A stretch of DNA of 50,474 bases from Allosphingosinicella sp. (GTDB lineage Bacteria > Pseudomonadota > Alphaproteobacteria > Sphingomonadales > Sphingomonadaceae), in assembly GCA_036400035.1 (NCBI GenBank), contig DASWLY010000008.1:1-50474 (forward strand). The letters are read 5' to 3'. Of this stretch, positions 5,620 to 35,233 are shown one piece after another. Made by a program: the position numbers and the translations under genes. A model generated the notes under the pieces. It did not search any database and had not been told where the DNA came from. It saw only the letters and a list, made by a program, of their open reading frames with translations. Position 1 is the first letter of the stretch; every line of letters begins with the position of its first letter.

Positions 5620-5638
5620 GCGATCGAGGAGGAGCATC

Positions 5639-7525: not shown

Positions 7526-7536
7526 GGAGCTGAATC

Positions 7537-7986: not shown

Positions 7987-7990
7987 GCGC

Positions 7991-10684: not shown

Positions 10685-10686
10685 CC

Positions 10687-11936: not shown

Positions 11937-11946
11937 AAGGAAGCTC

Positions 11947-12114: not shown

Positions 12115-12126
12115 GAGCCGCCGCGC

Positions 12127-16401: not shown

Positions 16402-16413
16402 GGAGACCAAGAC

Positions 16414-18699
16414 ATGCCCCTCCCCGCCCCTCCGATCGACACCCGCACCTTCCAGCGGCTGGTCGACGACACCCTGGCGATGGCCCCCACCTGCACTCCG
16501 GAGTGGACCAATTACAACGCGTCCGATCCGGGGGTCACCCTCGTCCAGCTGTTCGCGTTCCTGACCGAGGCGATGATCTACCGGGCCAATCAGATCCCGG
16601 TCCGAAACCGCGCCAAGTTCCTCGACCTGCTCAACATCCCCCTGCGCACCGCCAGCGAGGCGGTCGGCCTCGCGACCATCGTCAACGAGCGCGGTCCGAT
16701 CGAGGCGACGACGCTGGCCGCCGATCTGGAGCTGCTCGCCGGCAAGGTGCCGTTCCGAACCCAGACTGGGCTGGACGTGCTTCCGGTCGAGACCCGGATG
16801 ATGGTCAAGCGCCCCGTGCTCGACCCCGACCCGGCGATGCTCGAATATTACAAACTGCTCTATGCCTCCTACCAGGCCGACTTCCCCGAGGCGCCGTCGC
16901 TCTACGAATCGATCCAGCTCGACCCGATCCGGGACCCGATCGACCTTGCCGGCACCACCGACCGATCGCTGTGGATCGCCCTCATCGCCCGCGCCGACGA
17001 CCGGGCGACCGGCGACGACCCGTGGGCAGCCGTGCGCGAGGCGCTCGGCGGCCGCACCCTTTCCCTCGGGCTGGCGCCGGACCTCGCCGTCGAGCAGCGT
17101 GTGCTGCTTCCCGGCGGCCGCCGCCAGGAACCGGCCGACCTTCTCGCCTTCGAGCTGCCCCAGGTCGGCGCCGACGGGCTGATCGGCTTCGATTCCGACG
17201 GCGCTCCGGCGCCGGCCTACCGGCGGCTCGAGGCCCGGATGGATTTCGATCCGCTCACCCAGGCGGGAGTCGTCCAGATCCCGCTTCCGGACGCGCAGAG
17301 CCTGCGCGGGTGGAGCAACCTCGATCCGCTCGAGGCCGGAGTCGGCGACCTTCCCCCCGCCATCGAGGACACCGCGGTCGGCGAGCGGATCGTCACCTGG
17401 CTCCGAGTCCGCGCCACCGGCGGGGCCCGAGTTCAGCTGCGCTGGGCCGGGATCAACGCCACTCCGATCCGCCAGATCGAGCAGGTCCTCGTCGAACCGC
17501 TCGCGTCCGGCGACGGCACTCCGGACCAGGTCCGCCGCCTCGCCAAGGCGCCGGTGCTCGAAGGGTCGATCGCGGTGACCAGCATCGACGACAAAGGCGA
17601 GGAACGGCAATGGCAGGCCATCGACGACCTCCTGGCAGCGGGGCCGGAGCTCGCCATTCCCGACACCCTCGACCCGCGGCCGACCGATGTCTTCCTGGCG
17701 GACCATGAGGCGGGGCTGCTCCGCTTCGGCGACGGCCTCGCCGGGCGCCGGCCGCCCGACGGCGTGCGTCTGCTCGCCACCTACCTCTATACCGAGGGCG
17801 CCGAAGGCAATGTCGGCCCCGGCGCGATCAAGGGCGGCCCGCTGCTGCCCGCCGGCTTCACCGCGACCAATCCGATAAGGACGTGGAGGGGCGCCGACTC
17901 CGAGAAGGTCGAGGACGGCGAGAAGCAGGTCCGCCGCTACCTTCAGCACCGCGACCGGCTGGTGACGGTCGGCGATTTCGAGACGATCGCGTGGCGAGCG
18001 CCGGGCATCTCGATCGGCCGGATCGATATCCTGCCCGCCTGGCACCCGATCCTGTCTCCGGCGGCCCCGGGCGCGGCGCCGGGGGTCGTCACCGTCCTCG
18101 CCATCCCCCGCTACGATCCCGCTCATCCGAACGCGCCTCGCGCCGACCGGGGTTTCCTCGACGCTTTGTGCAGCCATCTCGATCCTCGACGCCTGGTCAC
18201 CACCGAGCTGGTCGTGCGCGGCCCCATCTACAAAGGGATCTGGATCTCGGTGGGCATCGAGACGATCGCAGGCGCGTCCATCGCCGAGACCAGCGAGGCG
18301 GTTCGGCAGCGGCTGCGCGATGCCCTGACCCCTCTCGCCACCGCGGACTTCGCCGAGCAGCAGGGCCCACTCTACGGCCCGCCGCCCACGGCGGAGCAGC
18401 GCGGCTGGCCGCTGCGCACGCCGGTCCAGGCGCGGGTGCTGCTCGCCGAGGCCGCGCGAGTCCCAGGCGTGCGTTCGGTGGCTCCGGTCCTCCTCGCCGA
18501 AGGATCGGGCGCCGCGGTCGAGACGATTGCGATCGAAGGCATCGAGCTTCCCGAGATATTGGGCATTTCGGTGGTCGCCGGAGATCCGATCGAGCTGTCC
18601 AGCCTGCGCGGCGATTCCTCCCAAGCCGGGTCCACGGGATCGGGCGGGTCGGCCGGTCCGAAGCGCCTGCCGGTGCCGGTGGCGGCGGAGACCTGCTGA
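16414..18699 (+). CDS. Baseplate J-like protein (Afp11-like)
   Basis: MPLPAPPIDTRTFQRLV...PEWTNYNASDPGVTLVQLFA...YRANQIP; RFGDGLAGRRPP; GNVGPG; RDRLVTVGDFE; LDPRRLVTTEL. Confidence 0.93.
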   Translation: MPLPAPPIDTRTFQRLVDDTLAMAPTCTPEWTNYNASDPGVTLVQLFAFLTEAMIYRANQIPVRNRAKFLDLLNIPLRTASEAVGLATIVNERGPIEATTLAADLELLAGKVPFRTQTGLDVLPVETRMMVKRPVLDPDPAMLEYYKLLYASYQADFPEAPSLYESIQLDPIRDPIDLAGTTDRSLWIALIARADDRATGDDPWAAVREALGGRTLSLGLAPDLAVEQRVLLPGGRRQEPADLLAFELPQVGADGLIGFDSDGAPAPAYRRLEARMDFDPLTQAGVVQIPLPDAQSLRGWSNLDPLEAGVGDLPPAIEDTAVGERIVTWLRVRATGGARVQLRWAGINATPIRQIEQVLVEPLASGDGTPDQVRRLAKAPVLEGSIAVTSIDDKGEERQWQAIDDLLAAGPELAIPDTLDPRPTDVFLADHEAGLLRFGDGLAGRRPPDGVRLLATYLYTEGAEGNVGPGAIKGGPLLPAGFTATNPIRTWRGADSEKVEDGEKQVRRYLQHRDRLVTVGDFETIAWRAPGISIGRIDILPAWHPILSPAAPGAAPGVVTVLAIPRYDPAHPNAPRADRGFLDALCSHLDPRRLVTTELVVRGPIYKGIWISVGIETIAGASIAETSEAVRQRLRDALTPLATADFAEQQGPLYGPPPTAEQRGWPLRTPVQARVLLAEAARVPGVRSVAPVLLAEGSGAAVETIAIEGIELPEILGISVVAGDPIELSSLRGDSSQAGSTGSGGSAGPKRLPVPVAAETC

Positions 18700-21503: not shown

Positions 21504-21542
21504 CCCTCGCCCACACCGCCAAGTTCGACAAGGAGCCGCACA

Positions 21543-23309
21543 ATGGGATGCTGTAATCAGATTTCGACCGGCCTGGTCGCCGGCGCTCCCGACCCGTCGC
21601 TGCACGTCAACTTCGTCAAGGGGATGGTGCTCGGAGTCGACGATTACCGCCAGGAATTCGCCTATCTTTCCAACGGCTACCGCTGGGCGATACGCGAACT
21701 CATCGGCTACGGCACCGCGAGCGGCCTCGCCGTCGCGGTCGAGGAGGACGGCCCCGCCGGACCGCGGGTGCGGGTGTCTCCCGGCTCCGCGGTGCCGCCC
21801 TCCGGCAAGATGATCTGCGTCGGCTCGGCGCAATGCGGATCGATCAACGCCTGGCTCGCCAAGCCGGAGGTTGCCGCGGATCTGAGCCGCCGGCTGTCCG
21901 CCAACTCGCCGCCCGGCTCCGGCGCCATTGCGATCCATCTCACCCTTTGCTTCCGCGATTGCGAGACCCTGCCGGTGCCGGTGCCGGGCACGCCCTGCCG
22001 GACCGACGACGAGCTGATGGTGCCCTCGCGGATCGCCGACGATTATCATCTTTCGCTGAGCTTCGATCCGCCGCCCCAGGCGGAGGCGGATGCGATCGCC
22101 TTGCTTGCGGCTTGGATCGGCAGCGTCGAGCTTTCCGAGTCGGCTTCCCCGCCCGACGATGAGGAAGCCGCGTGGCCCTCGGCGGTCAGAGCCGCTCTGG
22201 CCTTCATCGACGGCGCCTTCCGGTCCGAACCCAGCCCGCCCGATGCCGGCGCTCCGGACGGCGGCCATGATTTCGCCGGGCTGCCCGGCAGTCCGCCCTG
22301 GGGCCTGCCGCCGCTGATCGTTTCCGAGGAGCGCTATGACGACTTCATCCGGGTGGCATTCAGGATCTGGGTGACCGAATTCAGGCCGAGCTTCATGGCG
22401 AGGCGCTGCGCCGCTCCGGCTGACGATGCCGACGATTGCCTGCTCCTCGCCACCCTCGACGTCGCGGTGCTGCGCGAGGGGGATTCGGAGGAGCGCGGCT
22501 GGCAGGTCGACCCCGCCGTGCAGATCCGGATCGACGAACGCCGCCGGCCGCTGATCGCCCCGCTCCATCTCGTCCAGACCGCGCTCGGAGTTGCCGACGA
22601 CGCCGATGCCGACCCGGACGCGGTGCTGCTGTCGCCTCCCGCCGGTCCGACGGGTCCGGAGGGACCCCAGGGTCCGCAGGGCCTGCCGGGGCCGCAGGGT
22701 TCGAAGGGGGACAAAGGCGATCCCGGCGTCCCGGGGGCAGCTGGCGCGGCCGGACCCAAGGGCGACAAGGGCGATGCCGGCGCTCCGGGGACCGCGGGTG
22801 CGCCCGGCGCCAAGGGCGACAAAGGCGATGCCGGCGCGACCGGGGCGACGGGCGCGCAAGGCGCTCCCGGCGCGAAGGGCGACAAAGGCGACCAGGGAGT
22901 ACCGGGACCGCCGGGCACCTTCGGGCCGTTCATCCTGCGGCCCATCTTCATCAACGCCGACTTCACCATTCCGGCGACGGCCGAGATCGACGTCGTCGTC
23001 GCCCAGCAGGGCGCCGGGACGATCATTCTCCCCGAGGCGGCGGCCGTTAAGCCGGGACGGATATTCGCCATTCGGGCGATGAGCGAGATCCGGGTGGTGT
23101 CGACCCCCAACAACACCGTCGAAGGCGCGAACACCCTCTCGCTGTCCCCGGGAGAGGCCGAGATGCTGATGTCGGACGGCAAGGCTCGATGGATCAGCAT
23201 CGCCGACCGCAGGCCGCCCGCGGTCGAGCCCATGATGGGCCGGACCGGGGCTGGACGCCTCGGCAGGGTGCTCGGCGGCATCGCCGGCGACGGCACCGTG
23301 CTACGTTGA
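21543..23309 (+). CDS. Collagen-like tail fibre protein (588 aa)
   Basis: N-terminal [18 protein letters not shown]...YGTASGLAV domain, 32 Gly-X-Y triplets and a beta-rich C-terminal domain. Five SPP motifs. Confidence 0.8.
22644..22931 (+). repeat. Collagen Gly-X-Y repeat (32 triplets; four KGDKGD units)
   Basis: [30 protein letters not shown]...[21 protein letters not shown] counted in the translation. Confidence 0.95.
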
Positions 23310-23319
23310 GGAGGCAGAC

Positions 23320-24570
23320 ATGGCGACAGATTTTCCGGCGCTCGATCAGCCGCTTCCCGACGGCGGCATCCGCACCGTCAATTTCTTCAACGGACGGCTG
23401 CTTACGGGAAGCGACATGGGCCGCGAGCAGGCGGCCCGGCGCGAGGCCGACGCCCGGATCGGCCTGGCTCTGGGCGACGGAGTCGCCGAGGGGCTGTACG
23501 TCGAGTTCGCGGGACGGATCGCGCCGAACAATCGACCCGCGGTGACCGTCACCGCGGGAATGGCGGTCAACCGGGAGGGGCGCACGCTCCTCCTCCCCCA
23601 CGAGGTGACGGTCGCCCTGTCGCGGAGCGCTCCGGCCGGACCGGAGGCTGTGGCGTGCCTGTTCGAGGACTGCACCGAGGCCGGCGCCGGGGAATATGTC
23701 GCGGGCCAAGGCCTCTATCTCCTCACCATCGCCCCCGCCTTCGTCAGCGAGGGGCGGGCGAAGACCAACGGCTTCGACGACCAGGGAGTCCGCTGCAACA
23801 CCGACGCGACCGTGGAAGCGGTGCAGTTCCGGACCATCGCGATCAGCCCGCAGCTTCTCGGCGGCGCCGCGTTCGGCACGAGCGATTTCCGCAACCGGGT
23901 CGCCTACCGCGCCTTCGGCAAAGGCGTCACCCGGGCCTGGGCCGCCGACCTGCTCGGATCGGAGCCGCGCCGGGACGATCTGCTCGAGGCGCTCGGCTCG
24001 CTGCTCCACGCGGAGGAGGTCCCGCTCGCCCTGCTCGCCTTCACCGGCAGCTTCGACCATCTGTTCACCGACAATTGGAGCGTTCGCCGGCCGGTCTGCC
24101 CGCGCGACCCGGACGCCGTCGTCGCCAATTTGGCCGAGCCGCGTCGGCCCGTCGTCGGACGGGCCATGTTCCGCCAGTTCCAGGAGCATGTCTCCACGCT
24201 CGCCGCGGCCAACGGCAAGCTGCCGTCAGTGACGGCGCGAAGCCATTTCAAATGGCTCCCGCCGGTGGGCATCCTGCCCTGGCTGACCGACGCCGAGGCC
24301 CGTGCCTTTTTCGCCGGGATGACCGTGCGCGGCCCGCTCCACATCGACGCCGCCAGCGCCGAGCCGCTGATCCGGGAGAGCTTCGACATGCCCGCCGTGG
24401 AGACGGCGTCGGCCGAAGCGGTCTGGCTCTACCGGATCGCCCAGAACCGGATGGATCCGGCCCGTCCGGCGCCGGTGATGCTCTTCGCGAGCGGCCACCT
24501 GCCCTGCCGCGCGGATGCCCGCTTCAACCTGAATTACTGGAACTACGCCAATTACGCGCTGATACCGTGA
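23320..24570 (+). CDS. eCIS fibre/baseplate-attachment-like hypothetical protein (416 aa)
   Basis: GAGGAGG RBS. N-terminal VNFFNGRLLTGSDMGREQ...DGVAEGLYV...VTVTAGMAV is paralogous to the N-terminus of the collagen fibre. Confidence 0.75.
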   Translation: MATDFPALDQPLPDGGIRTVNFFNGRLLTGSDMGREQAARREADARIGLALGDGVAEGLYVEFAGRIAPNNRPAVTVTAGMAVNREGRTLLLPHEVTVALSRSAPAGPEAVACLFEDCTEAGAGEYVAGQGLYLLTIAPAFVSEGRAKTNGFDDQGVRCNTDATVEAVQFRTIAISPQLLGGAAFGTSDFRNRVAYRAFGKGVTRAWAADLLGSEPRRDDLLEALGSLLHAEEVPLALLAFTGSFDHLFTDNWSVRRPVCPRDPDAVVANLAEPRRPVVGRAMFRQFQEHVSTLAAANGKLPSVTARSHFKWLPPVGILPWLTDAEARAFFAGMTVRGPLHIDAASAEPLIRESFDMPAVETASAEAVWLYRIAQNRMDPARPAPVMLFASGHLPCRADARFNLNYWNYANYALIP

Positions 24571-24583
24571 AGGGAGCCGGAAC

Positions 24584-25030
24584 ATGGTCGAGAAAAAGGG
24601 AATGGCCGCCCAACGATTGGGCAGGAAGGTCGTCGAACCGGAAGCCCTGGTGCAGCAGGGCCCCGAGTTCATTGGAAATCGGAAAGCCGAGGCCGTTCGA
24701 AATCCCGACGCCGAGTTCGTCGGAGGCCGGATGACCGAGGCGGATTCGAATCCCGACGTCGAGGCGGTCGGAGACAAAGGGGAGTTCGCTCCTGACACCA
24801 AGAGCCCGCCGATCGTAGCGAAGCCCGGCCGGCCCCGCTGGCCCCGTCGGCCCCGCCGGCCCGGGCGGCAGGAGCCGGCGCTCCGCCTGGTGCAGGCCGG
24901 TGACCTGATCACCGCCGATTTCATGAACGACCTGGTCCAGGCGGTCCAAGATCTGCAATCGCGAGTCGCCGACCTGGAGGCGGCGGACGACGACGATTCG
25001 TCCGACGACTTCAGCGCGAACGCGATCTAG
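24584..25030 (+). CDS. Hypothetical eCIS protein (148 aa)
   Basis: GGGAG RBS. C-terminal VQAGDLITADFMNDLVQAVQDLQSRVADLE (fibre-attachment-like motif plus coiled coil). Confidence 0.6.
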   Translation: MVEKKGMAAQRLGRKVVEPEALVQQGPEFIGNRKAEAVRNPDAEFVGGRMTEADSNPDVEAVGDKGEFAPDTKSPPIVAKPGRPRWPRRPRRPGRQEPALRLVQAGDLITADFMNDLVQAVQDLQSRVADLEAADDDDSSDDFSANAI

Positions 25031-26835
25031 TGGACGATTGGAGCGCCTCCGCGATCCGCACCGGCGCGACATTGTGGATCGGGCGCGCTCGCCTTCACAA
25101 TGCCGCTCCCGGGGACCGCGATCGCCTCGCGCTCGGGCTCGAAGCGGTCAGACCGGCGGCCATTGGAGTGCCCGACCGCGCCCTGCTGATCGTGCCCCGT
25201 CTCGTCGTTCGCAAACCGCTTCCCCGGCATGGCGACGCCGGACTTTTCGCCGGCGATGTCGCCGACGCCGTTCGGGTGGCGCTGCGGCGGGCGCGGCGGC
25301 CCGGCGAGCCCGCCTCGTCCAGCGACAGCTTCTTCTTCGCCGACGAGCTCGACGCGGCGGTTCGGATCATCGAGCAATGGCTGGCCGGAGCGCCGCCGGC
25401 CGAACGGGCATGGTGGCCGCACGTCACCGGCGGCGTCGCGCCGCCGGTGTGGTGGCGGCGGGCCATCCGTCCCGACGGCCGCCGCCTGCCCTCGGTCATA
25501 GCGAGGCTGGCACGGCGCGGTGTCGCCGAACTTTGGCTCGGACGGCTCGATCCCGGCGACATCCGCACCGGTCTGGGGGCGATCGCCGAGGCCTATGGGC
25601 TGACCTTGCCGCCCATCGCGGAGGCTCCGGCCCCGGCCCGGCAACGGCGTTCCTCGGACGCGGTTTCGGCGGACCTGGCGCCGGCGGCGGCGCTGGTCGA
25701 GGCGATCGCTCCGGAGGCGCGGCGAGCGGACCTTCCGCCCCCCGTCCGCCTCCTGCTTCTGGTCGGGCTGATCGCCGAGCGTCGGCCGGCGATGCTCGCG
25801 GTCCGCACGGCAAGGCTCGCTTTCGCCGCGGTGGCCGCCGGCACCCTTCCGGAGCCGGGGGAGAGGGCGCACCCGCCTCGGCCACGCGCGCGCTCTTCGA
25901 GCGCCTCCGTGCCGGATCGCCCGCTTCAGCGGGCCCGGACCCGCCGTACGGAGCCGGGCCCGTCCCCAGCGTCGCTTACGCCGACCCTTCCGGCGCCGTT
26001 GGAAGAAACCGCGACTCGCCGGCCCCAGGACCTGAAGCCGCCGGAATCCGCCGTTCGCGCTCCTGTGGAACGGCCCGCGCGCCCGGCCCCCGAGGCCTGG
26101 GACGAAGCACCCTGCCCTTCCGCCGAAATCGGGTCCGAATATGGCGGGCTGCTGTTCCTGCTCAGCGCCTTGCTCGCCCTTGGAATCTATGGCGATTTCA
26201 GCGAGCCTCGGCGGTCGCTTCCGGGCCTTTCGCCGTTCGGCTTGCTTCGGCTGCTCGGCCGCGCGTGGTTCGGAGCGCCGTTCGTCGCCGATCCTCTCCA
26301 TGGCCTGCTCGTGCGCCTGGCGGGAGGACGGCGTGCGGACCCGGCGCGGGACTTCGAGGCGCGCCCCTGGTCGGTGCCGCGGATATGGCTGCTGCCCTGG
26401 CCGGACTCGGGCCCGGCTCTCGTCGCACCTCGCGGGCGGCGGCCGATGCTCTGGCACCCCGCCGGCTTCCCGCTGGCGGAACTGGACGGCGGCGATCCGC
26501 CCTCCGCCGCCCGCGCCGCCCGGCAATTGGGCCTGAAGGGCCGGCCGGGTCCCTCCCGGCTTCCCGCCTTGCCGGTTGCGCCCCGAGCACGCTGGATCGC
26601 CTGCCTGCGCCTCTATCTCGAGGCCCGGGTCGGCAAGGGGCTGGGCTGTGCCGGAGGGATCGAGGCCGTGACCCTGCTGTGCCGCCGGCCCGCCCGCATC
26701 CGCGTCGACGGCGACAGGATCGAAGCCAGATTCGCCCTCGACGATCATCCGCTCGCCATCCGGCTGGCGGGCCTGGACCGCGATCCGGGCTGGATCCCGG
26801 CGGCGCGGTACGATTTCCGGCACTATTTCGAATGA
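25030..26835 (+). CDS. Putative tape-measure-like protein (Afp14-like, 601 aa)
   Basis: Directly upstream of the AAA ATPase. EYGGLLFLL recalls the AGLVLL motif of CIS tape measures. C-terminal IRLAGLDRDPGWIP. Low-complexity Pro/Arg linker. Confidence 0.55.
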   Translation: MDDWSASAIRTGATLWIGRARLHNAAPGDRDRLALGLEAVRPAAIGVPDRALLIVPRLVVRKPLPRHGDAGLFAGDVADAVRVALRRARRPGEPASSSDSFFFADELDAAVRIIEQWLAGAPPAERAWWPHVTGGVAPPVWWRRAIRPDGRRLPSVIARLARRGVAELWLGRLDPGDIRTGLGAIAEAYGLTLPPIAEAPAPARQRRSSDAVSADLAPAAALVEAIAPEARRADLPPPVRLLLLVGLIAERRPAMLAVRTARLAFAAVAAGTLPEPGERAHPPRPRARSSSASVPDRPLQRARTRRTEPGPSPASLTPTLPAPLEETATRRPQDLKPPESAVRAPVERPARPAPEAWDEAPCPSAEIGSEYGGLLFLLSALLALGIYGDFSEPRRSLPGLSPFGLLRLLGRAWFGAPFVADPLHGLLVRLAGGRRADPARDFEARPWSVPRIWLLPWPDSGPALVAPRGRRPMLWHPAGFPLAELDGGDPPSAARAARQLGLKGRPGPSRLPALPVAPRARWIACLRLYLEARVGKGLGCAGGIEAVTLLCRRPARIRVDGDRIEARFALDDHPLAIRLAGLDRDPGWIPAARYDFRHYFE

Positions 26836-28835
26836 ACCCGACGTCCCTCCTCGACCCATTCGAACGGACAGCGGCCAATCATTTGCGGCTCGCGCTGCTC
26901 GGGGTCGTGCTTCGGGTGGTCGAGGTCGCCGCCGACCCGGCCGCCCTGCTCGACGAGGCGCCCTTCCTCGTCGAGCATCTCGCGAACCTCCCTCAGCTTG
27001 CGGAGACGCTTCCCACCGCGGCGGAGTGGCAGGAGGCTCTGCGATCCTGGTGCCACGGCCACGACCATTTCCCGCTCGTGCGGCTGGAGGCGGCGGGGCT
27101 GGCAGGCCTCGACATCGACATCCTGCTCACGCTCGGCTTGGCGGAGGAGGACGGGCGCCTCGCCGCTCTGTTCGGCACGAGCTCGAAGCGGCTGACGCTC
27201 GGCGCGATCGACGCTCTGTGGCGCGGCGCCGAGGCGAGCGGCGAAAGCGTCAGGACGAGCCTGGCGAGGTTGTGCGACGTCGGCCTTGTCGTGCTGCTAA
27301 ACCCGGAGGACGTCCGACTCGACTGGCAATATTCGGTGGCGGCGGCGCTGTGGGACGCGCTTTGCGGGATCGCCCGGCCGCCGGCGGGAATGACCCTCAC
27401 CGTTGCCGCGGCGCTTCCCGAGCCCGGCGGTTTCGTGCCGCCGCGGCCCGATTTTCCAGGGCTGGAGACCCTTGCCGCACTGCTCGCCGGGCCGTCGCGG
27501 CCGATCGTCTGCCTTCGCGGTCCTAGCCATAACGGGCGGCATATGCTGGCCGGCTGCCTGCTGAAGATGCTCGGCCGGCCGCTGCTGACCATCGAGGAAG
27601 CTCTGGTCGGCGACGGCGCGTCATGGCGCCTCGCCGGCGCCCTCGCGATCGTCACCGGCGCGGGGCTGGCGGTGGAGGTGAGAGCCGGCGCGGGCGAGGA
27701 GCGAATCCTGCCGGCCTTGCCGCTGGCGGGCGTGCCGCTCATCGCCATCGCCGGCGTCTCGGGAGCCATTCGAAGCGCCGAACGGCGGCCGGTGGTCGCC
27801 GTCGGCGTGCCGATGCCCGCCCCGGCGGCCCGCGCCGAGCTGTGGCGCCGGACCGGGCTCGATTCCGGCGAAGGGAACATGGGGTGGCTGGCGGCGGAAT
27901 TCCGGCTGACCAGCGGCACGATCGTTCGAGCGGCGGAAGCGGCGGCGGGACAGGCGAAGCTCGCGAGCCGCGACCGGATCGGCCGCGGCGACGTGCAGGC
28001 GGCGATCCGAACCCTGCACGACGCCCGCCTGGAATCGGTCGCCAAAAGAATCGATCTCGGAGACGATACCACCTTCATCGCTCTGGACGAGCTCGCCCGG
28101 GAGGAGCTTTCGGCCCTTGGCGCGCGGTGCCGCCATCGCGAAAGCCTGGCCGGCGGCGGCGCCGGGAGCGGGCCCGGCGCGGGCGGCGTGCGCGGCCTCT
28201 TCGCCGGCCCCAGCGGCACCGGCAAGACGCTCGCCGCCCACTGGCTTGCCCACGGGCTCGGCAAGGACCTGTTCCGGATCGATCTCGCCGCGTCGGTCAG
28301 CAAATATATCGGCGAGACCGAGAAGAATCTCGACCGCGCCTTCGCCGCCGCCGAGGAGCTCGACTGCATCCTGCTGCTCGACGAGGGCGATGCGTTGATG
28401 ACCCGGCGCACCGACGTCGGCAGCTCGAACGATCGCTACGCCAATCTCGAGACCAACTTCCTGCTCCAGCGGATCGAATCCTACGAGGGGATATTGCTGG
28501 TCACCACCAACGCCCCGGACCGGATCGACGAGGCCTTCGCCCGCCGGATGGACGTCGTCGTCCACTTCCGCCTTCCGGACGAAGAGCTGCGTTACGAGAT
28601 ACTGGAGCGCCACCTTGGGCCGCATTCGGCGTCGGACGCGCTCATCCAGGAGATCGCCTGCCGATGCGCGCTGAGCGGAGGCCAGTTGCGCAACCTGGCG
28701 CTGCACGCGCGGCTTCTGGCGCTCGATGCCGGCGGGCCGCTCGGCGACGGACAGGTCCGGACCGCCTTGCTGCGCGAATATCGCAAGACCGATTCCCATT
28801 GCCCGCTTAAGCCGCATCTCGCCGCGGTGATGTGA
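26832..28835 (+). CDS. AAA+ ATPase (Afp15/Pvc15-like)
   Basis: ATGA overlap. Walker A GPSGTGKT, SKYIGETEKNL, Walker B LLLDEGD, DRYANLETNFLLQRIE. A degenerate first P-loop GPSHNGRH. Confidence 0.93.
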   Translation: MNPTSLLDPFERTAANHLRLALLGVVLRVVEVAADPAALLDEAPFLVEHLANLPQLAETLPTAAEWQEALRSWCHGHDHFPLVRLEAAGLAGLDIDILLTLGLAEEDGRLAALFGTSSKRLTLGAIDALWRGAEASGESVRTSLARLCDVGLVVLLNPEDVRLDWQYSVAAALWDALCGIARPPAGMTLTVAAALPEPGGFVPPRPDFPGLETLAALLAGPSRPIVCLRGPSHNGRHMLAGCLLKMLGRPLLTIEEALVGDGASWRLAGALAIVTGAGLAVEVRAGAGEERILPALPLAGVPLIAIAGVSGAIRSAERRPVVAVGVPMPAPAARAELWRRTGLDSGEGNMGWLAAEFRLTSGTIVRAAEAAAGQAKLASRDRIGRGDVQAAIRTLHDARLESVAKRIDLGDDTTFIALDELAREELSALGARCRHRESLAGGGAGSGPGAGGVRGLFAGPSGTGKTLAAHWLAHGLGKDLFRIDLAASVSKYIGETEKNLDRAFAAAEELDCILLLDEGDALMTRRTDVGSSNDRYANLETNFLLQRIESYEGILLVTTNAPDRIDEAFARRMDVVVHFRLPDEELRYEILERHLGPHSASDALIQEIACRCALSGGQLRNLALHARLLALDAGGPLGDGQVRTALLREYRKTDSHCPLKPHLAAVM

Positions 28836-28836
28836 G

Positions 28837-31800
28837 GTGGCGAGCCGGGCGCCCGCCGAAGCCGCCGCCGCGCCCGCCGAGGCTGAGGCCGCGCCGACCC
28901 CTTCGCGCCACCGGGAAAGCCTCCGGGTCCGCACCGCCCTCAAAGTGTCCTCGCCCAGCGATCCGGCCGAGCGGGAGGCCGAAGCGACCGCGAAGCGGGT
29001 GATGCGCATGCCGGCGCCGACGCGGCTCGGCCCGATCGTCGCCCGTGCGCCCCTGCAGCCGGCGCGGGCGCCGGCGATTTCGGTACCGCGTCCGCAGGCC
29101 CCGTCCGGGGCGGCGCCGCCGCCGCCCAAGGCGCGCCCGCCGGAGGAAACCAGCCCGGAGCTCGAGGCGGCGATCAAGAAGGAGAAAGGCGGCGGCCGGC
29201 CGCTTCCCGCCGACATCGCAAGCTTCATGGGGCCGCGCTTCAAGGCCGATTTCAGCGGCGTTCGGATCCACACCGGCGGACGGGCGGAGAATCTCACCAC
29301 CCGCCTCGGCGCCAGGGCCTTCGCCTTCGGCCGCGACATATTCTTCAACGCCGGGCAATTCCAGCCCGCCACGCCCGAAGGCATGGAGCTCATCGCCCAC
29401 GAGCTCACCCACACCATCCAGCAGCGCGAGGTCGTCCAGCGCGAGGTGGCGGACTTTGCGCCCGTGGAGGTCCGCGAGAGCAGCGCTCCCCAGGTCCAGC
29501 GCGGAATCGTCAGCGAGGCCCTCGACTGGATCGCCGACAAGGCCAATTACATACCGGGCTTCCGGCTGTTCACGGTCGTGATCGGCCTCAACCCCGTCAA
29601 CATGAGCAAGGTCGACCGGAGCGGCGCCAACATCCTGCGCGCCCTGATCGAGTTCATCCCCGGCGGCGGGCTGATCGTCGAGGCGCTGGAGAATCACGGA
29701 GTCTTCCAGAAGGGCGGCAAGTTCATCGAGGATCAGTTCCGCTCGCTCGGAATGGTCGGCGGCATGTTCCGCGACGCGCTGATGGAGTTCATCGACTCGC
29801 TCGGCTTCAGCGACATCTTCCGCCTCGGCAGCCTCTGGGGCCGGGCCAAGCGCATCTTCACCGAGCCGATCGACAAGCTCATCGAGTTCGGCAAGGGGCT
29901 GGTCTCCGGCGTCGCCGACATCGTCAAGGACGCGATCCTCAAGCCGCTCGGCCGGTTCGCGGCGTCGGTCGTTCCCAAATGGGACCTGCTGGTCGGAGTG
30001 TTCGGCAAGAACCCGATCTCTGGGGAGGGCACGTCCCCGGCCGCCGCGATCATGGGCTCCTTCATGGAGCTGATCGGCCAGGGCGAGATCTGGAAGAACA
30101 TCCAGCAGGGCAATGCGGTCGGTCAGGCGTGGAGCTGGTTCAAGGGCGCGATGGCGGGCGCGCTGGCGCTCGTCACCTCGATCCCCGGCCGGGTGATGGG
30201 CGTGATCCGCTCGCTCACCATCTTCGACATCGTCACCGTCGCCGGTGCCTTCAAGAAGGTCCTATCCGCTTTCGGGAGCTTCGCCGGGGATTTCATTCGC
30301 TGGGCGGGCGGGACCGTCCTCAAGCTGCTCGAGATCATCCTGTCCGTGGTGGCGCCGACGATGGTGCCCTATCTCAAGAAGGCGGGCTCGGCCTTCGGCA
30401 CGATCATCAAGGCGCCGGGCACCTTCATCGGGACGCTGGTGCGGGCCGGCAAGCTCGGTTTCGGACAGTTCAAGAAGAACATCCTCAAGCACCTCACCCA
30501 GGGCCTGATCAACTGGCTTCTGGGCTCGCTGGCCGGCCTGAACCTCTACCTGCCCAAGAGCTTCGAGCTGAAGGAGATCCTCAAGTTCGGGCTCTCGGTG
30601 GTCGGACTGACCTGGGCCAATCTGCGCGCCAAGCTGGTGGCGGCGACCAACGAGACGGTGGTCAAGACGCTCGAGACCGGCTTCGACCTCGTCGTCACGC
30701 TGGTTCGCGAAGGGCCGGCGGCCGCCTGGCAGCAGCTGCTCCAGTCGCTGTCGAACCTCAAGTCGATGGTGACCGACGCCATCATCGACTACGTCAGGCA
30801 GAAGGTGATCGAGTCCGCGATCGAGAAGCTGGTCTCGATGCTGACCCCGGCGGGCGCCTTCATCCAGGCGATCCTCGCCATCTACCGCACCATCACCTTC
30901 GTCGTGAACAAGCTGTCGGAGATCGGCCGGCTGGTCGCCGCCTTCATCGACAGCATCTCCGCGCTCGCCGGGGGAGTCGTCGCCACCGCCGCCAACCGCA
31001 TCGAATCGGTGCTCGCCACCGGCCTGTCCCTCGCCATCAGCTTCCTCGCCAACTTCGCCGGCCTCGGCAACGTCAGCAAGAAGGTGGTCGAGATCGTCAA
31101 CAAGATCCGCAAGCCGGTCGACAAGGCGCTGGACAAGGTCGTCACCTGGGTCGTCACCAAGGCGAAGCAGCTCGGCAAGATGCTGATAGGATCGAGCGGA
31201 AAGCCCGTCGCCCCGGCCAAGGGCGACAAGCCGACCGACGGCGAGCTCGGCAAGACCGTCACTTTCGCGGCCGTCGACGGCGGGCACCGCCTGTTCGTCG
31301 CCCCGTCCGGCGAGCTGATGCTGGCCAGCAAGCTGCAGAAGCTCTCCGCGCACCTGACGCAGTTCCGCAAGGACGCCAAGAACCTCGACGAGCCGGCCCA
31401 GTCCAAGGTGCTCGGCGCCATCGCGACCGCTCATCCGATTGCGAAGAGCATCGAGAAGGACGCCAAGGAGGCGAAGAAGACCAAGATCGGAACGGACGAT
31501 CGGGACAAGCTCGACAAGCAGATCGAGTCTGCCGAGGTGACTCTGCAGCCACTCCTCAAGACGATCCTCGACGAGCTAGGGGTCAAGGTCCCCGACAGGC
31601 TGGACCCGATGACCTTCAATTTCATCAAGGGCCCGACATGCGATCCCGGCGAGTATAAGCGCCAGCTCGACCGCCAGGCGAAGCAGATCAACGAATGGTC
31701 GGTCGAGATATGGCTGACCCGGCGAGCGCAGTTCACTGAGTTCAAGCGGGCCGCGCGCGCCCGGGGCAAAACGGGCAGGGACATCACCGGCCGTGATCCT

Positions 31801-32268
31801 AGATCGAAGAAGGCCCAGGACCAGGCGAAGGTCGCGGTGTTCGAGCTTATCGTCCAGCGGCTGATGCTGCCGCAGAACGCCACCGGCGGGGTCGCCGCCC
31901 TCATTGCCGCCGACAGCGGCGCGCAGAAGATCGTCGACAGGATATTCGGTAAATTCTCGGAATCTACGCGGCGCAGGGGCATGGCGGAGAGCACGGCGCG
32001 CGCTGCGGTGGAGCCCGAAAAGAAAGGCGTCTCCGCACTTCACGAGCCGGACCAGGTCGTCGGCGGCAAATACAACCAGATCGACGATGTCGGAAATTCC
32101 ACGGTCAACGAGGATATCGGCGCCAACTGGGGCGGGCGCAGTTTCCATGGACTGGCGCGGGCGCCCCTTGCCAAGAACATGGAAACGCAGGTCAAGAGCG
32201 AGATGCGCAAGCTGAAGATCAGCCGCGCTTTCTGGCGCAAGACCAAGATGAACGTCGTGCTGACCTAA
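28837..32268 (+). CDS. DUF4157 (eCIS core) protein with C-terminal Ntox15/Tde1-like DNase toxin domain (1143 aa)
   Basis: DUF4157: GGGRPLP...FKADFSGVRIHT...ARAFAFGRDIFF...LIAHELTHTIQQ. Long helical amphipathic middle. Tip: EYKRQL...GRD...AQ...SALHEPDQVVGG...GNSTVNEDIGANW, with HxxD at about H1069-D1072. Confidence 0.85.
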   Translation: MASRAPAEAAAAPAEAEAAPTPSRHRESLRVRTALKVSSPSDPAEREAEATAKRVMRMPAPTRLGPIVARAPLQPARAPAISVPRPQAPSGAAPPPPKARPPEETSPELEAAIKKEKGGGRPLPADIASFMGPRFKADFSGVRIHTGGRAENLTTRLGARAFAFGRDIFFNAGQFQPATPEGMELIAHELTHTIQQREVVQREVADFAPVEVRESSAPQVQRGIVSEALDWIADKANYIPGFRLFTVVIGLNPVNMSKVDRSGANILRALIEFIPGGGLIVEALENHGVFQKGGKFIEDQFRSLGMVGGMFRDALMEFIDSLGFSDIFRLGSLWGRAKRIFTEPIDKLIEFGKGLVSGVADIVKDAILKPLGRFAASVVPKWDLLVGVFGKNPISGEGTSPAAAIMGSFMELIGQGEIWKNIQQGNAVGQAWSWFKGAMAGALALVTSIPGRVMGVIRSLTIFDIVTVAGAFKKVLSAFGSFAGDFIRWAGGTVLKLLEIILSVVAPTMVPYLKKAGSAFGTIIKAPGTFIGTLVRAGKLGFGQFKKNILKHLTQGLINWLLGSLAGLNLYLPKSFELKEILKFGLSVVGLTWANLRAKLVAATNETVVKTLETGFDLVVTLVREGPAAAWQQLLQSLSNLKSMVTDAIIDYVRQKVIESAIEKLVSMLTPAGAFIQAILAIYRTITFVVNKLSEIGRLVAAFIDSISALAGGVVATAANRIESVLATGLSLAISFLANFAGLGNVSKKVVEIVNKIRKPVDKALDKVVTWVVTKAKQLGKMLIGSSGKPVAPAKGDKPTDGELGKTVTFAAVDGGHRLFVAPSGELMLASKLQKLSAHLTQFRKDAKNLDEPAQSKVLGAIATAHPIAKSIEKDAKEAKKTKIGTDDRDKLDKQIESAEVTLQPLLKTILDELGVKVPDRLDPMTFNFIKGPTCDPGEYKRQLDRQAKQINEWSVEIWLTRRAQFTEFKRAARARGKTGRDITGRDPRSKKAQDQAKVAVFELIVQRLMLPQNATGGVAALIAADSGAQKIVDRIFGKFSESTRRRGMAESTARAAVEPEKKGVSALHEPDQVVGGKYNQIDDVGNSTVNEDIGANWGGRSFHGLARAPLAKNMETQVKSEMRKLKISRAFWRKTKMNVVLT

Positions 32269-32281
32269 GGGAGACGTTGGA

Positions 32282-32875
32282 ATGGCAGCGAAGAAGGAGC
32301 CCGAGCGATCGGTAGCGGCGTTCCGCAAGGCCTGCGGTCCGGCGCAACCTTATCGGCCGTTCAAGCCAGCCGACGCCAAGCGCCTGGGCGAGCGGTTGCC
32401 CGCGGCCTTGCGGCTCCTCGCCGAGATGGACGGGTGGGCGAGCTATGCCGAACAAACGTTCTGGCTTTGCGACCCCGACGATTGGAGCGGCATAGCGGAC
32501 GACTGGATGGAGGACGCCCCCGGCGCTGAGGTGGTCATGCGCACCGGCTTCGGCGACCTGCTGGTTTGGGACGGCGCTTTCTTCTGGCTGGTCATGCCCC
32601 ACCAATCGTCGCGAATGCGGCTCACGGACAATGCCGAATGGCTGCTGCGCTCCAGCCTGCTCAACCCGGAATCCTACTTTCAAAAGGATCTGCCCGGAAT
32701 GATGGAACGGGCGCGCCGGGAGGCTGGGTCCCTGGAAGCGGATACCCTCTACACCTACGTCCCGGCGCTCGCGCTCGGCGGCGATGACAAGAGCTCGAAG
32801 ATCGAGACGGAGAAGGCACGGGAAGCCTTGTCGATCCTGGCGCAGCTCGCGCCGGTCGCCAAGCTTGGACTCTGA
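32282..32875 (+). CDS. GAD-like/DUF1851 (Tdi1-like) immunity protein
   Basis: LPAAL...DGW...FWLCDP...RTGFGDLLVW (GAD-like) and GSLEADTLYTYVPALALGG...LSILAQL (DUF1851). Lies 13 nt after the toxin stop with a GGGAG RBS. Confidence 0.85.
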   Translation: MAAKKEPERSVAAFRKACGPAQPYRPFKPADAKRLGERLPAALRLLAEMDGWASYAEQTFWLCDPDDWSGIADDWMEDAPGAEVVMRTGFGDLLVWDGAFFWLVMPHQSSRMRLTDNAEWLLRSSLLNPESYFQKDLPGMMERARREAGSLEADTLYTYVPALALGGDDKSSKIETEKAREALSILAQLAPVAKLGL

Positions 32876-32878
32876 GCC

Positions 32879-35233
32879 ATGACTCCCCGCGTCTCCGCGA
32901 TCATGCCGACCGCCGACCGACGGCGCTTCGTGCCCGGCGCGGTCTCCGCCTTCTTGGCTCAGGATCGGGAGGATGCCGAGCTGGTCATCCTCGACGACGG
33001 GGCCGATCCGGTCGCCGACCTCGTGCCCGACGATCCTCGAATCCGCTATTTCCGCGAGACGCGCGGGCGAACCCTCGGTGATAAGCGCAACCGGCTGTGC
33101 GAACTGGCGCGCGGCGAGATCCTGATCCACTGGGACGATGACGACTGGCACGCCCCGGACCGGATCGCCCGCCAAGTCGCGGCGATGGAGGCCCATCGGG
33201 CAGACATATGCGGGGTCGACAGGGTCATCTTCCTGTCGGACGACGGCGAGAGCGCCTGGGACTATGTCTATCGCGGGCGGCAGCGCTGGGTGTGCGGGGG
33301 AAGCCTGGCCTATCGTCGCGCCTTCTGGGAGCGCCACCCCTTCCCCGCCTTGCGCAGCGGCGAGGACACGCGCTGGGTGTTCAGCGCCGTCACCGCCGCG
33401 GTCCACGCGATGGACGCTCCCGACCTCTTCGTCGCCCGGGTCCATGCCGGCAATACCAGCCCCAAGCAGGTTCGGGGCGGCTACTACCACCCGCGCGACC
33501 CCGCGCCCGTGAGGGCGATAGTCGCCGGTTTCGAGCGGCCGGGGACGAGCTTGCCGGTGCGGCGACCGGCGCTTCCGAACATCCGTATCGGCATTCACCT
33601 CTGCTCCCGAGAGCAGGACCTGTCGGCGACGATCCGAGCGGTTCACGAAAACACGTCGCTTCCTTTCGATCTGGTGGTTCTCGACGATCTCGCCCCCGGC
33701 GAAGCGGGGGGTCCCACGTCGGGGGCGGCGGCATCGCCGAAGCTTCGCCACTGCCGGATACCGCCCCCCGGCGGCGTGCAGGCCTGTTTCAACCAGCTGG
33801 TCGGGCCGGAAGCCGATATCTATGTCTTGCTCGAAGGGGGAGCATTGCCCGCGCCTGGATGGCTCGACCTGCTCGTCGGCGCGCTCCAGGCGGATCCCGC
33901 CAACGGCCTCGCCGGACCTTCCACCAACTGGTGCTGGAACGAGCAGGGCGTCACTTCGAACCGCGGCGCGACGGCCGCCGATCTGAGGCGGCAGGCGACC
34001 GACCTGCTGCACCGGCACGGGCGCGGCTGGCGCTCGATGGCGCCGCTCTACTCGCTGTCGGACTTCTGTCTCGCGGTGCGCAAGGAAGTGGTCGCGGCGA
34101 TCGGCGCGGCCGATCCCGTCTACGGGCGCGGGCCGTGCTGGGAGATGGACTATGCGGCGCGAGCCGCCCGCGCCGGTTTTCATTCGGTCTGGTCGCAGGC
34201 GGCCTTCGTCCATCGGGCGCCGCCGCCCACCGAGCGCATGAAGACGGAGCAGCGCCTGTTCGAGGCCAACAAGCGCGCCTATCAGGATCGTTTCTGCGGC
34301 CGCCGGCTCCTGGCCGAAGGGCGCGGCGCGCCTTATCGGGATCATTGCCGGGGCGACGATTGCGCCAATTTCGCGCCTGCCGCGATCACCCTTTCGCTGC
34401 CGCTGCCCAGGCCGTTGGCGGAGGAGTGCCGGCTCGGCCCCGAAACGCCGCCGCTGATCACTTGCATCATGCCGACCCGGGGGCGGCCCGAATTCGTCGC
34501 TCAGGCGATCGCCTATTTCCAACGTCAGGAATATCCCGCCCGCGAGCTGGTGATCGTCCACAAGGACGATTCCGACTTGCCGGAGATCGCGGACGCCCCC
34601 GACATCCGTATCGTCCGGACCCGCCAGCGCAGCATCGGCGGCATGCGCAATGCGGCCGTCGAGGCGGCGCGCGGCGACATCATCGCCCATTGGGACGACG
34701 ACGACTGGCACGGCCCGCGGCGCCTGAGCCGTCAGGCCGCCCCCATCCTTCAGGGCATCGCCGACATGACAGGCCTGAACGACACGTTGTTCATGATCGT
34801 GCCGACGCGCGAATTCTGGTCCGTGTCGCCGAAGCTCTTCGCCAGGCTGTTCGTCGAGAATATCCACGGCGGCACCATGATGTTCCGGCGGGAGATCTGG
34901 CGGCGAAGCGGCCCCTATCCGCCCATCTCCCTTCGGGAGGACGCCGAGCTGTTGATTCGCGCCGTTCGCGGCGGGGCAAGGCTGTGCCGGCTTCGTGGCC
35001 GCGACGATTATGTCTACGTCCGCCACGGCCGCAATACGTGGAGCTTCGCCGAGGGAAGCTATCTGCAGCGGGAGGAATGGCTCAAGGTGGGCGAACCCGA
35101 GGTGCTGGCTCCGGACCTCGGCTTCTATTTCACCCACCGAAACGCACCGCAGGCGCTGACGGCAAGGCCGCGGACGGGGCTTCGGCCGCCGACCTTGTGC
35201 CGGCTACGCGGTGGCCGGCGGATCGCGAGCTGA
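32879..35233 (+). CDS. Tri-domain GT2 glycosyltransferase (784 aa)
   Basis: Domains 1 and 3 are duplicates (VSAIMPT/ITCIMPT...IHWDDDDWH/AHWDDDDWH...GED/RED). The middle GT2 domain has GLAGPSTN...FCLAVRKEV...EMDY. Starts 3 nt after the immunity gene. Confidence 0.88.
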   Translation: MTPRVSAIMPTADRRRFVPGAVSAFLAQDREDAELVILDDGADPVADLVPDDPRIRYFRETRGRTLGDKRNRLCELARGEILIHWDDDDWHAPDRIARQVAAMEAHRADICGVDRVIFLSDDGESAWDYVYRGRQRWVCGGSLAYRRAFWERHPFPALRSGEDTRWVFSAVTAAVHAMDAPDLFVARVHAGNTSPKQVRGGYYHPRDPAPVRAIVAGFERPGTSLPVRRPALPNIRIGIHLCSREQDLSATIRAVHENTSLPFDLVVLDDLAPGEAGGPTSGAAASPKLRHCRIPPPGGVQACFNQLVGPEADIYVLLEGGALPAPGWLDLLVGALQADPANGLAGPSTNWCWNEQGVTSNRGATAADLRRQATDLLHRHGRGWRSMAPLYSLSDFCLAVRKEVVAAIGAADPVYGRGPCWEMDYAARAARAGFHSVWSQAAFVHRAPPPTERMKTEQRLFEANKRAYQDRFCGRRLLAEGRGAPYRDHCRGDDCANFAPAAITLSLPLPRPLAEECRLGPETPPLITCIMPTRGRPEFVAQAIAYFQRQEYPARELVIVHKDDSDLPEIADAPDIRIVRTRQRSIGGMRNAAVEAARGDIIAHWDDDDWHGPRRLSRQAAPILQGIADMTGLNDTLFMIVPTREFWSVSPKLFARLFVENIHGGTMMFRREIWRRSGPYPPISLREDAELLIRAVRGGARLCRLRGRDDYVYVRHGRNTWSFAEGSYLQREEWLKVGEPEVLAPDLGFYFTHRNAPQALTARPRTGLRPPTLCRLRGGRRIAS

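What the first reader, a model, noticed from the sequence alone, without database searches (positions are those of the whole stretch)
28837..32875. eCIS-linked DUF4157-Ntox15 DNase toxin with cognate Tdi1-like immunity gene
Seen: DUF4157 with HELTH, a long helical middle and a tip with EYKRQL, GRD..AQ, ALHEPDQVVGG and VNEDIGANW, followed 13 nt later by a GAD-like/DUF1851 gene. Established: Ntox15 HxxD nucleases (Agrobacterium Tde1) with GAD-like/DUF1851 immunity are T6SS interbacterial effector/immunity pairs, whereas the best-studied eCIS (Afp, PVC, MAC) target eukaryotes. Inference: an eCIS carrying a T6SS-type DNase. Immunity implies toxicity to the producer or kin, consistent with an antibacterial or self-killing role.
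Basis: partly seen in the sequence, partly recalled or inferred. Interest (0 to 1): 0.8.

Follow-up and report, generated by a model that had tools for sequence, protein, structure and literature searches.

The report
Swappable DNase cassette on injection particle
At the end of a bacterial phage-tail-like injection gene cluster sits an intact toxin gene whose interchangeable tip is a predicted DNA-cutting enzyme, followed by its likely antidote gene; it is a real and tidy example of an arrangement already catalogued, probably used against rival bacteria.

Summary
Observation confirmed. 28837-32268 encodes 1143 aa: a low-complexity N-terminus, DUF4157 (HELTH), a helical trunk and an Ntox15 tip with H1069/D1072 in the Tde motif PD(X)3GG. 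13 nt later, 32282-32875 encodes GAD-like + Tdi1_C with the Tdi motif PALALGG. Both follow the AAA ATPase of an eCIS locus; no T6SS sheath was found (genome 74% complete).

The gene is a polymorphic toxin. The trunk has at least 1,150 homologs, and 119 tips fall into 36 clusters. Ntox15 is scattered over the trunk tree (15 changes for 16 rows, no better than shuffled), and tip and downstream gene travel together from about residue 781.

It is not new in kind. Zhang 2012 lists Ntox15 with the PVC-metallopeptidase; Geller 2021 supplements list eCIS Ntox15 + GAD-like/DUF1851 pairs, including this trunk family.

Best reading: eCIS cargo DNase with cognate immunity, likely antibacterial (0.55). Immunity does not prove a bacterial target: a DNase threatens its producer anyway, and 2 of 9 Ntox15 loci lack adjacent Tdi. 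The trunk has no structural match and is the open part. Interest 0.33.

The parts
28837..32268 (+). Polymorphic toxin gene, 1143 aa (P0001)
28837..29151 (+). Residues 1-105: Pro/Ala-rich, aromatic-free N-terminus; predicted disordered loading sequence (inferred by analogy to AlgoCIS cargo)
   Evidence: 80% P/A/E/S/Q/K/R/G, no aromatics; analogy
29200..29430 (+). DUF4157 / eCIS_core (PVC-metallopeptidase), HELTHTIQQ at residues 188-196
   Evidence: E 4.5e-29; HExxHxxQ in 119 of 121 family members
29509..31176 (+). Conserved all-helical trunk, residues ~225-780, seven moderately hydrophobic segments; function not established
   Evidence: no significant fold match
31177..31596 (+). Linker, residues ~781-920; first part of the exchangeable cassette
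   Evidence: identity switch at ~780 against P0003 and G032/G036 gene A
31597..32268 (+). Ntox15/Tde nuclease tip, H1069 (32041-32043) and D1072 (32050-32052) in HEPDQVVGG; pI about 10.3
32282..32875 (+). Tdi-family immunity gene (GAD-like + Tdi1_C/DUF1851), PALALGG at residues 161-167; pI about 5.0
26832..28835 (+). Afp15/Pvc15-like AAA ATPase, likely cargo loader, ends 1 nt before the toxin
   Evidence: role by analogy
4136..24570 (+). eCIS structural genes: Pvc16 (4136), sheaths (5639, 7991), tubes (7570, 10687), CIS_tube (11142), hub and spike (12127, 13194), gp25 (16012), baseplate (16414, 18699), CIS13-like fibre genes (21543 with collagen repeats, 23320)
25030..26835 (+). Conserved gene between fibres and ATPase; sits where CIS_TMP sits in some related loci, but is not shown to be a tape measure
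32879..35233 (+). GT2 glycosyltransferase starting 3 nt after the immunity gene; conserved neighbour of trunk genes, role unclear

Best explanation
The gene is an eCIS-locus polymorphic toxin with a constant DUF4157-helical trunk and an exchangeable Ntox15 tip plus Tdi gene; it is likely loaded into the injection particle and would degrade the DNA of competing bacteria, while the Tdi protein likely protects producer and kin. Shown here: domain content, intact catalytic and immunity motifs, tight linkage to the eCIS operon, and repeated exchange of tip plus downstream gene among trunks. Inferred: (1) co-expression with the eCIS; (2) the disordered N-terminus is recognised by the adjacent AAA ATPase and the unfolded protein is threaded into the tube, as for AlgoCIS Cgo1/Cgo2 (about 0.85 that it is cargo); (3) after injection the tip refolds as a Mg-dependent non-specific DNase like Tde (0.9), with the hydrophobic trunk helices possibly helping it cross the inner membrane (speculative, 0.3); (4) Tdi binds the tip, its PALALGG displacing the tip's PDQVVGG active-site helix (0.9 that it neutralises); (5) bacteria are the main target (0.6).
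For: Pfam hits above cut-off. Profile hits to solved Ntox15 domains, E 1.6e-27, and DUF1851 immunity proteins, E 5.7e-15, including Atu4351 at E 4.8e-7. H1069, D1072, G1077, G1095, Q943 and Q947 are invariant in 25 of 25 tip rows (22 distinct); P(hydrophobic)4GG is in 21 of 23 Tdi rows; these are the motifs defined in PMC13556189. Trunk identity averages 52-82% per 25-aa window against 4-16% after residue 800, and 119 tips form 36 clusters. Ntox15 needs 15 changes for 16 rows on a 121-row trunk tree, shuffled mean 14.4. Trunks 98-99.8% identical carry tips of different clusters (7 pairs). Of 20 locus pairs sharing a downstream small-gene family, 19 share the tip family; permutation mean 0.93, maximum 8 in 10,000. 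Downstream families include SMI1/KNR4, DUF4241, HEAT and YbjN. No TssC was found in G000 or in 5 relatives that all have Pvc16, one of them 100% complete with the same cassette. DUF4157 proteins are lumen cargo in AlgoCIS.
Against: No experiment, expression data or complex model. A non-specific DNase endangers the producer whatever the target, so immunity does not identify the victim. Of 9 non-redundant Ntox15-tipped loci, 2 have no adjacent Tdi (L081, L117) and 1 has an unassigned 196-aa ORF (L052). At most 37 of 77 trunk loci have a small downstream ORF, and that count includes shadow frames. The tip has Arg962 where PMC13556189 reports a 100% conserved Asn-Arg pair in gut Tde, though 12 of 25 rows share this. 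Engineered AlgoCIS delivered Cre into E. coli only after being made 30% longer. The fibres give no target clue. The permutation test ignores relatedness.
Confidence: 0.55

Rival explanations
1. Same cargo and DNase, but the particle is aimed at eukaryotes (protists, fungi, microfauna); Tdi only shields the producer's own DNA before loading.
For: The characterised Afp/PVC/MAC particles hit eukaryotes, and the MAC effector Pne1 is a nuclease (passages). Many trunk loci, including two with Ntox15, lack adjacent immunity, which Zhang 2012 read as activity against distant organisms. One fibre has collagen repeats.
Against: Near-identical trunks swap among dozens of tips together with tip-specific immunity families, the pattern of kin-level bacterial conflict. 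The tested Tde/Tdi pairs in the papers I read are interbacterial.
Confidence: 0.2
2. The CIS stays cell-bound and fires on contact like the haloarchaeal T6SS-mode CIS, so the pair works as a T6SS-like effector/immunity pair without particle release.
For: Halogeometricum CIS secretes DUF4157 toxins with downstream immunity in contact-dependent killing (PMC11566945). No holin or endolysin hit appeared among the window ORFs scanned in Pfam (not every called gene was scanned). No canonical T6SS sheath was found.
Against: No membrane anchor was identified or tested. The locus has fibre genes and a Pvc15-like loader typical of released particles.
Confidence: 0.12
3. Self-directed role: the nuclease acts inside the producer for programmed lysis or eDNA release, like Streptomyces davawensis Tme, with the trunk as a tape-measure-related membrane element.
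For: Tme has the same order: DUF4157, helical hydrophobic region, C-terminal nuclease. The window's positional tape-measure gene fails the CIS_TMP model. Two homologs give sub-threshold lambda tape-measure hits at E about 0.04.
Against: A dedicated inhibitor opposes self-action, and dozens of unrelated tips are hard to explain for a housekeeping task. Genuine CIS_TMP genes coexist with the trunk gene in 3 of 3 such loci scanned. The trunk has no PHROG hit and no fold match at E 0.001 or better.
Confidence: 0.08
4. The tip is catalytically decayed or not delivered; the cassette is a passenger.
For: Pfam Ntox15 covers only 59 residues; Asn-to-Arg at 962 and a long insert between the subdomains; a decayed cassette relic exists in L103.
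Against: Both ORFs are intact with all core residues, the insert and Arg962 are shared by relatives at 41-59% identity, and the immunity gene is retained.
Confidence: 0.05

Closest known systems
PVC-SS polymorphic toxins (PVC-metallopeptidase + variable tip), Zhang et al. 2012, PMC3482391
   Same: Constant N-terminal HExxHxxQ domain, variable C-terminal toxin; Ntox15 explicitly listed with PVC export and the PVC-metallopeptidase.
   Different: That table names Imm-SUKH as Ntox15 immunity and predicted RNase-type activity was later revised to DNase; in the passages read it does not describe this ~550-aa trunk.
eCIS Ntox15 genes in eCIStem, Geller et al. 2021, PMC8213781 supplements
   Same: Ntox15 enriched in eCIS (11 cases, odds ratio 100). 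Toxins of 1,070-1,124 aa are followed by GAD-like and/or DUF1851 genes in Lysobacter antibioticus (2 genomes), Thiothrix caldifontis and Caulobacter sp. Root655. Cluster 309 holds the Caulobacter gene and Ga0156789_110949; my L117 lies on that scaffold, is 1132 aa, and is 47% identical to P0001 over residues 35-794.
   Different: In what I read these genes are table rows, not tested toxins; cassette exchange within the trunk family is not analysed there.
Tde/Tdi pairs of Agrobacterium, Bacteroidales and Bacillota (PMC10470768, PMC13556189; PDB 8FZY, 8FZZ, 8G0K, 6ITW)
   Same: HxxD within PD(X)3GG, Tdi P(hydrophobic)4GG, basic tip and acidic immunity protein, adjacent genes.
   Different: Those are delivered by T6SS or lie by T7SS. 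This tip has Arg-Arg for Asn-Arg and about 48 extra residues between the two subdomains relative to 8FZZ_A. Linking the PDB codes to those papers is my recall; the call gives only molecule names.
AlgoCIS cargo Cgo1/Cgo2 (PMC8894135; preprint 10.64898/2026.05.27.728243)
   Same: Disordered N-terminus, DUF4157, variable C-terminal part, similar size to Cgo2 (1,228 aa), AAA+ ATPase in the locus.
   Different: No immunity gene is mentioned in PMC8894135; sequence relationship of the trunks was not tested.
Streptomyces davawensis Tme; Micromonospora RS14790/RS14785; Halogeometricum CIS toxin-immunity pairs
   Same: CIS-linked DUF4157 or helical carriers with nuclease tips; the latter two have validated downstream immunity.
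   Different: Intracellular or membrane-bound CIS in Gram-positive or archaeal hosts, and other nuclease folds.

Membership tests
Ntox15/Tde nuclease | Pfam PF15604 above curated cut-off | tested here: met
   41.6 bits vs 22.5, partial coverage
Ntox15/Tde nuclease | HxxD within PD(X)3GG | tested here: met
   H1069-E-P-D1072-Q-V-V-G-G (definition)
Ntox15/Tde nuclease | Tandem Asn-Arg in helix 1-2 (100% in gut Tde set) | tested here: not met
   Arg962-Arg963; Asn in 13 and Arg in 12 of 25 rows. A sub-lineage trait, not a criterion of the Pfam family
Ntox15/Tde nuclease | Tde fold | tested here: inconclusive
   Single-sequence model pLDDT 45, not searched; sequence profile hits solved domains at E 1.6e-27
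Ntox15/Tde nuclease | Mg-dependent DNase activity | not testable with these tools
   needs assay
Tdi immunity | GAD-like + Tdi1_C (DUF1851) domains | tested here: met
   E 3.8e-9 and 9.4e-11; PDB profile hits
Tdi immunity | P(hydrophobic)4GG motif | tested here: met
   PALALGG 161-167
Tdi immunity | Binds and neutralises the adjacent tip | not tested
PVC-SS/eCIS polymorphic toxin | N-terminal DUF4157 with HExxHxxQ | tested here: met
PVC-SS/eCIS polymorphic toxin | Constant N-part, interchangeable C-terminal toxins | tested here: met
PVC-SS/eCIS polymorphic toxin | Encoded in an Afp/PVC-like locus (sheath, gp19 tube, gp25, Pvc16, AAA ATPase) | tested here: met
PVC-SS/eCIS polymorphic toxin | Loaded in released particles | not testable with these tools
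   needs particle proteomics
T6SS effector | T6SS sheath genes in the genome; PAAR/VgrG/Hcp/Rhs carrier | tested here: not met
   No TssB or TssC in G000 (73.6% complete, so absence is not shown); no TssC in 5 relatives including a 100% complete one; no such domain in P0001
CIS tape-measure protein or Tme-like effector (trunk) | CIS_TMP or phage tape-measure homology | tested here: inconclusive
   No Pfam, PHROG or fold match; only sub-threshold hits; not compared directly with Tme

The most novel reading that the evidence does not exclude
T6SS-lacking sphingomonad-type bacteria use a released eCIS as their kin-discriminating antibacterial weapon, and the uncharacterised helical trunk (especially residues ~490-775, shared by carriers with different N-termini) is a new translocation module that carries interchangeable nuclease/immunity cassettes into bacterial cytoplasm. 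This locus, and the cultured-quality relative G255, would then give a native Afp/PVC-type particle killing bacteria with a nuclease cargo and cognate immunity.
Probability: 0.25. Interest if true: 0.65.

Novelty: new member of a known kind. Interest (0 to 1): 0.33.

Why it matters
Whether native Afp/PVC-type particles kill bacteria is still open in what I read: Geller 2021 showed toxicity on expression, a 2023 review says they 'probably' inject bacteria, and AlgoCIS needed engineering to reach E. coli cytoplasm. A Tde/Tdi pair has known chemistry, a known inactivating mutation and a built-in specificity control, so it is a convenient test case. The family-wide cassette shuffling also turns the trunk into a hook for finding unnamed toxin/immunity pairs: most of the 36 tip clusters have no Pfam match. 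The locus itself adds one more example to a published list.

Tried and rejected
Complex prediction of tip with Tdi was not available, so there is no verdict on binding. The single-sequence tip model was unusable (pLDDT 45). The trunk model (residues 205-790, 117 rows, pLDDT 75, pTM 0.45) had no Foldseek match at E 0.001 or better in PDB or BFVD, and VIA best Z 8.0 (rmsd 4.0, 82 aligned) to generic helical hairpins, with only model residues 75-177 and 209-303 well tested; this does not show a new fold. The trunk profile had no PDB sequence hit; the Atlas gave only unnamed clusters at 0.90-0.91. NCBIfam TaeI on the immunity gene was rejected (50.5 bits vs cut-off 450). Calling 25030-26835 a tape measure failed: no CIS_TMP hit, hhalign 0.25%. 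No RNA holder was listed; small-share runs X2-X4 gave nothing usable. The distant search for the trunk was not run; the one job went to the tip. The AU test rejecting one Ntox15 clade (p 1e-5) used 22 rows picked after seeing the first tree, so I rely. The tip was found in 1 of 250 family genomes and the trunk N-half in 2 of 36 same-genus genomes (stricter first look, a floor). A simple deletion from the G032 gene order would give the opposite chimera, so it does not explain the window gene. The fifth DUF4157 hit on C241 (23.4 bits) is a 166-aa stand-alone gene. Earlier scan findings: none. Geller supplement files 13-15 were not searched, and files 6 and 12 were cut when stored; preprint supplements are closed and could describe this trunk.
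Full report
OBSERVATION. Pfam gives eCIS_core 122-198 (E 4.5e-29) and Ntox15 1046-1104 (E 1.7e-10) for the 1143-aa protein, and GAD-like (E 3.8e-9) plus T6SS_Tdi1_C (E 9.4e-11) for the 197-aa protein. The tip alone matches solved Ntox15 domains (8FZZ_A E 5.9e-10). Profiles reach E 1.6e-27 for the tip and 5.7e-15 for the immunity protein. Unitigs of run X1, which may be the source sample, bridge both the trunk/cassette junction and the toxin-immunity gap.

CONTEXT. The window is contig C8 of a 2.6-Mb, 73.6% complete genome. The best trunk homologs that carry names are mostly Sphingomonas/Sphingomonadales, so a sphingomonad is inferred. An eCIS runs on the + strand from Pvc16 (4136) to the AAA ATPase (26832-28835). 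The toxin starts 1 nt later, the immunity gene 13 nt after that, and a glycosyltransferase 3 nt after that. TssB and TssC were not found in G000 (the control rang in E. coli). TssC was not found in 5 of 5 relatives that all have Pvc16, including 100% complete G255, which has the same trunk-Ntox15-Tdi arrangement after its ATPase.

ANATOMY. Residues 1-105 are 80% disorder-promoting with no aromatics. In AlgoCIS such an N-terminus is required for loading, DUF4157 is dispensable, and the AAA+ protein is required (preprint 10.64898/2026.05.27.728243, passages). The window gene and both G032 genes begin MASRAPA although one has an unrelated body, which fits a system-specific loading signal; the G036 gene begins differently. 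The trunk (225-780) models as helical hairpins (pLDDT 75, pTM 0.45) with seven 19-residue segments of hydropathy 1.5-1.74 and no significant structural match. The tip is basic and the immunity protein acidic. The tip has the Tde motif PD(X)3GG around H1069/D1072 and the immunity protein has the Tdi mimic motif PALALGG (definitions from PMC13556189 passages; counts). Against a perfect fit, the tip has Arg-Arg where gut Tde have Asn-Arg (Arg in 12 of 25 rows) and the longest spacing between subdomains in the set (110 residues; range 36-110).

IT IS A POLYMORPHIC TOXIN. The trunk search returned 1,150 proteins among the 7,996 candidates scored; I analysed the best 120. Mean identity to the window protein is 52-82% per window over 226-775 and 4-16% after 800. 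Two truncated rows were dropped; 119 tips (window included) form 36 clusters, Ntox15 being the largest with 16. One representative per cluster gave Endonuclea_NS_2, Ntox4, AHH, deaminase and BMT5-like tips, most with no Pfam match. On the trunk tree (FastTree, 121 rows) Ntox15 needs 15 changes, no fewer than shuffled labels (mean 14.4; 410 of 500 as low). Seven pairs with 98-99.8% identical trunks share only 16-40% after residue 800. The window gene itself switches allegiance near residue 780: P0003 is 73-100% identical before and 13-37% after, while the DUF4157-less gene A of G032 and G036 is 7-40% over 481-780 and mostly 43-63% after. Both gene A copies are followed by a Tdi gene.

IMMUNITY TRAVELS WITH THE TIP. 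Among 97 trunk hits in 95 loci, 84 had a full tip and 77 were non-redundant. Downstream lay a small ORF in 37 (an upper bound, shadow frames included), a glycosyltransferase or other enzyme in 10, the ATPase in 7, another trunk gene in 2, other or none in 16, and too little DNA in 5. Of 20 pairs sharing a small-gene family, 19 share the tip family (permutation mean 0.93, maximum 8 of 10,000; relatedness not corrected). Over 98 loci, 8 of 9 Tdi hits follow an Ntox15 tip; the ninth (L103) is a fragment fusing an Ntox15-like stretch to a Tdi C-terminus behind a different tip, which looks like a relic of a displaced cassette. Conversely, of 9 non-redundant complete Ntox15 loci 6 have Tdi, 1 has an unassigned 196-aa ORF and 2 have none. 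Immunity is thus tip-specific but not obligatory.

ORIGIN OF THE TIP. A search of 1.84 billion representatives gave 148 hits. Of the 17 at E 1e-10 or better, every one of 319 aa or more (11) carries the trunk's second half, the gene A body or the linker; the other 6 are short pieces. Among 38 hits scanned in Pfam, PAAR, LXG and VgrG carriers appear only at E 2.7e-5, 1.3e-4 and 8.2e-4. The tip is therefore an eCIS-resident branch of Ntox15, not a recent T6SS capture.

MECHANISM. Most likely the protein is loaded through its N-terminus by the ATPase, injected, and degrades target DNA, with Tdi splitting and inactivating the tip in producer and kin as described for Tde/Tdi (PMC10470768, first part of text and passages). 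Every functional step is inferred. The target is the weakest step. Kin-level cassette turnover favours bacteria (0.6), but a DNase needs an antidote in the producer regardless, the fibres are uninformative, and engineered AlgoCIS reached E. coli cytoplasm only when lengthened (section 9). Rivals are a eukaryotic target (0.2), a cell-bound contact-dependent CIS (0.12; PMC11566945 passages), a Tme-like self-directed role (0.08; PMC11126660 passages) and decay (0.05).

PRIOR ART. Zhang 2012 (PMC3482391; passages and section 13) lists Ntox15 with PVC export and the PVC-metallopeptidase, and proposes interbacterial use. The Geller preprint names a Lysobacter eCIS Ntox15 DNase (one passage). The published paper (PMC8213781; passages, section 11, supplement rows) validates an eCIS toxin-immunity pair, finds Ntox15 enriched 100-fold, and tabulates Ntox15 genes followed by GAD-like and/or DUF1851 in four genomes. 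My L117 is on the same scaffold and of the same length as one tabulated gene and is 47% identical to the window protein over the trunk. Other papers seen as passages: PMC11297309, PMC13277306, PMC8894135, PMC12923769, PMC10598620. The Agrobacterium Tde paper PMC4096383 was seen only as a listing. In the searched library I found no test of an eCIS Ntox15/Tdi pair and no description of this trunk; subscription papers and unseen supplements could hold either.

VERDICT. Real, correctly read, and a new member of a known kind. The added value is the documented cassette exchange and an uncharacterised, widespread trunk. Interest 0.33; the most novel reading has probability 0.25 and interest 0.65.

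Noticed in passing
window 86-250 and 357-521 (-): Two near-duplicate 54-aa ORFs beginning MEKKTFAFKLADK beside an ABC exporter (760-2580); possible peptide precursors.
   Followed up: no
window 2650-3360 (-) and 3819-4136 (+): A LuxR/GerE-like regulator (by sequence appearance) and a small receiver-like gene head the eCIS locus.
   Followed up: no
window 32879-35233; L027, L029, L032, L050, L054, L081 and others: A GT2 glycosyltransferase follows the toxin or immunity gene in many trunk loci, sometimes directly in place of an immunity gene (all 3 Ntox4-tipped loci lack a small ORF, one with too little DNA), although GT2 is depleted in eCIS overall (odds ratio 0.28). It might mask a surface receptor.
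   Followed up: partly
L022:6716-9928 (-) (G032); L023:11390-14785 (G036): A second eCIS carrier without DUF4157 and with a different, apparently beta-rich body shares the cassette from residue ~781; no Pfam or PHROG hit apart from Ntox15.
   Followed up: partly
L021 (G000:C10) 1850-5237: Three tandem DUF4157 genes of another type with no small ORF between them; the first has a GNAT domain and an HNH-like end.
   Followed up: partly
L103:4273-4533: Relic fusing an Ntox15-like stretch to a Tdi C-terminus behind a non-Ntox15 tip.
   Followed up: yes
window 25030-26835: Conserved gene at the tape-measure position that the CIS_TMP model misses; possibly a second tape-measure family.
   Followed up: partly
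P0093: A trunk homolog whose tip is a BMT5-like rRNA methyltransferase domain (E 2e-25), an unusual toxin candidate.
   Followed up: no
L037, L099, L101, L110: YbjN-like genes follow one tip cluster in 4 non-redundant loci (Pfam hit in 2 of 3 scanned, one weak), suggesting YbjN-fold immunity.
   Followed up: partly
window 13919-16015: 698-aa gene between spike and gp25 with a hydrophobic C-terminus and no Pfam, NCBIfam or PHROG hit; could bear on membrane anchoring.
   Followed up: no
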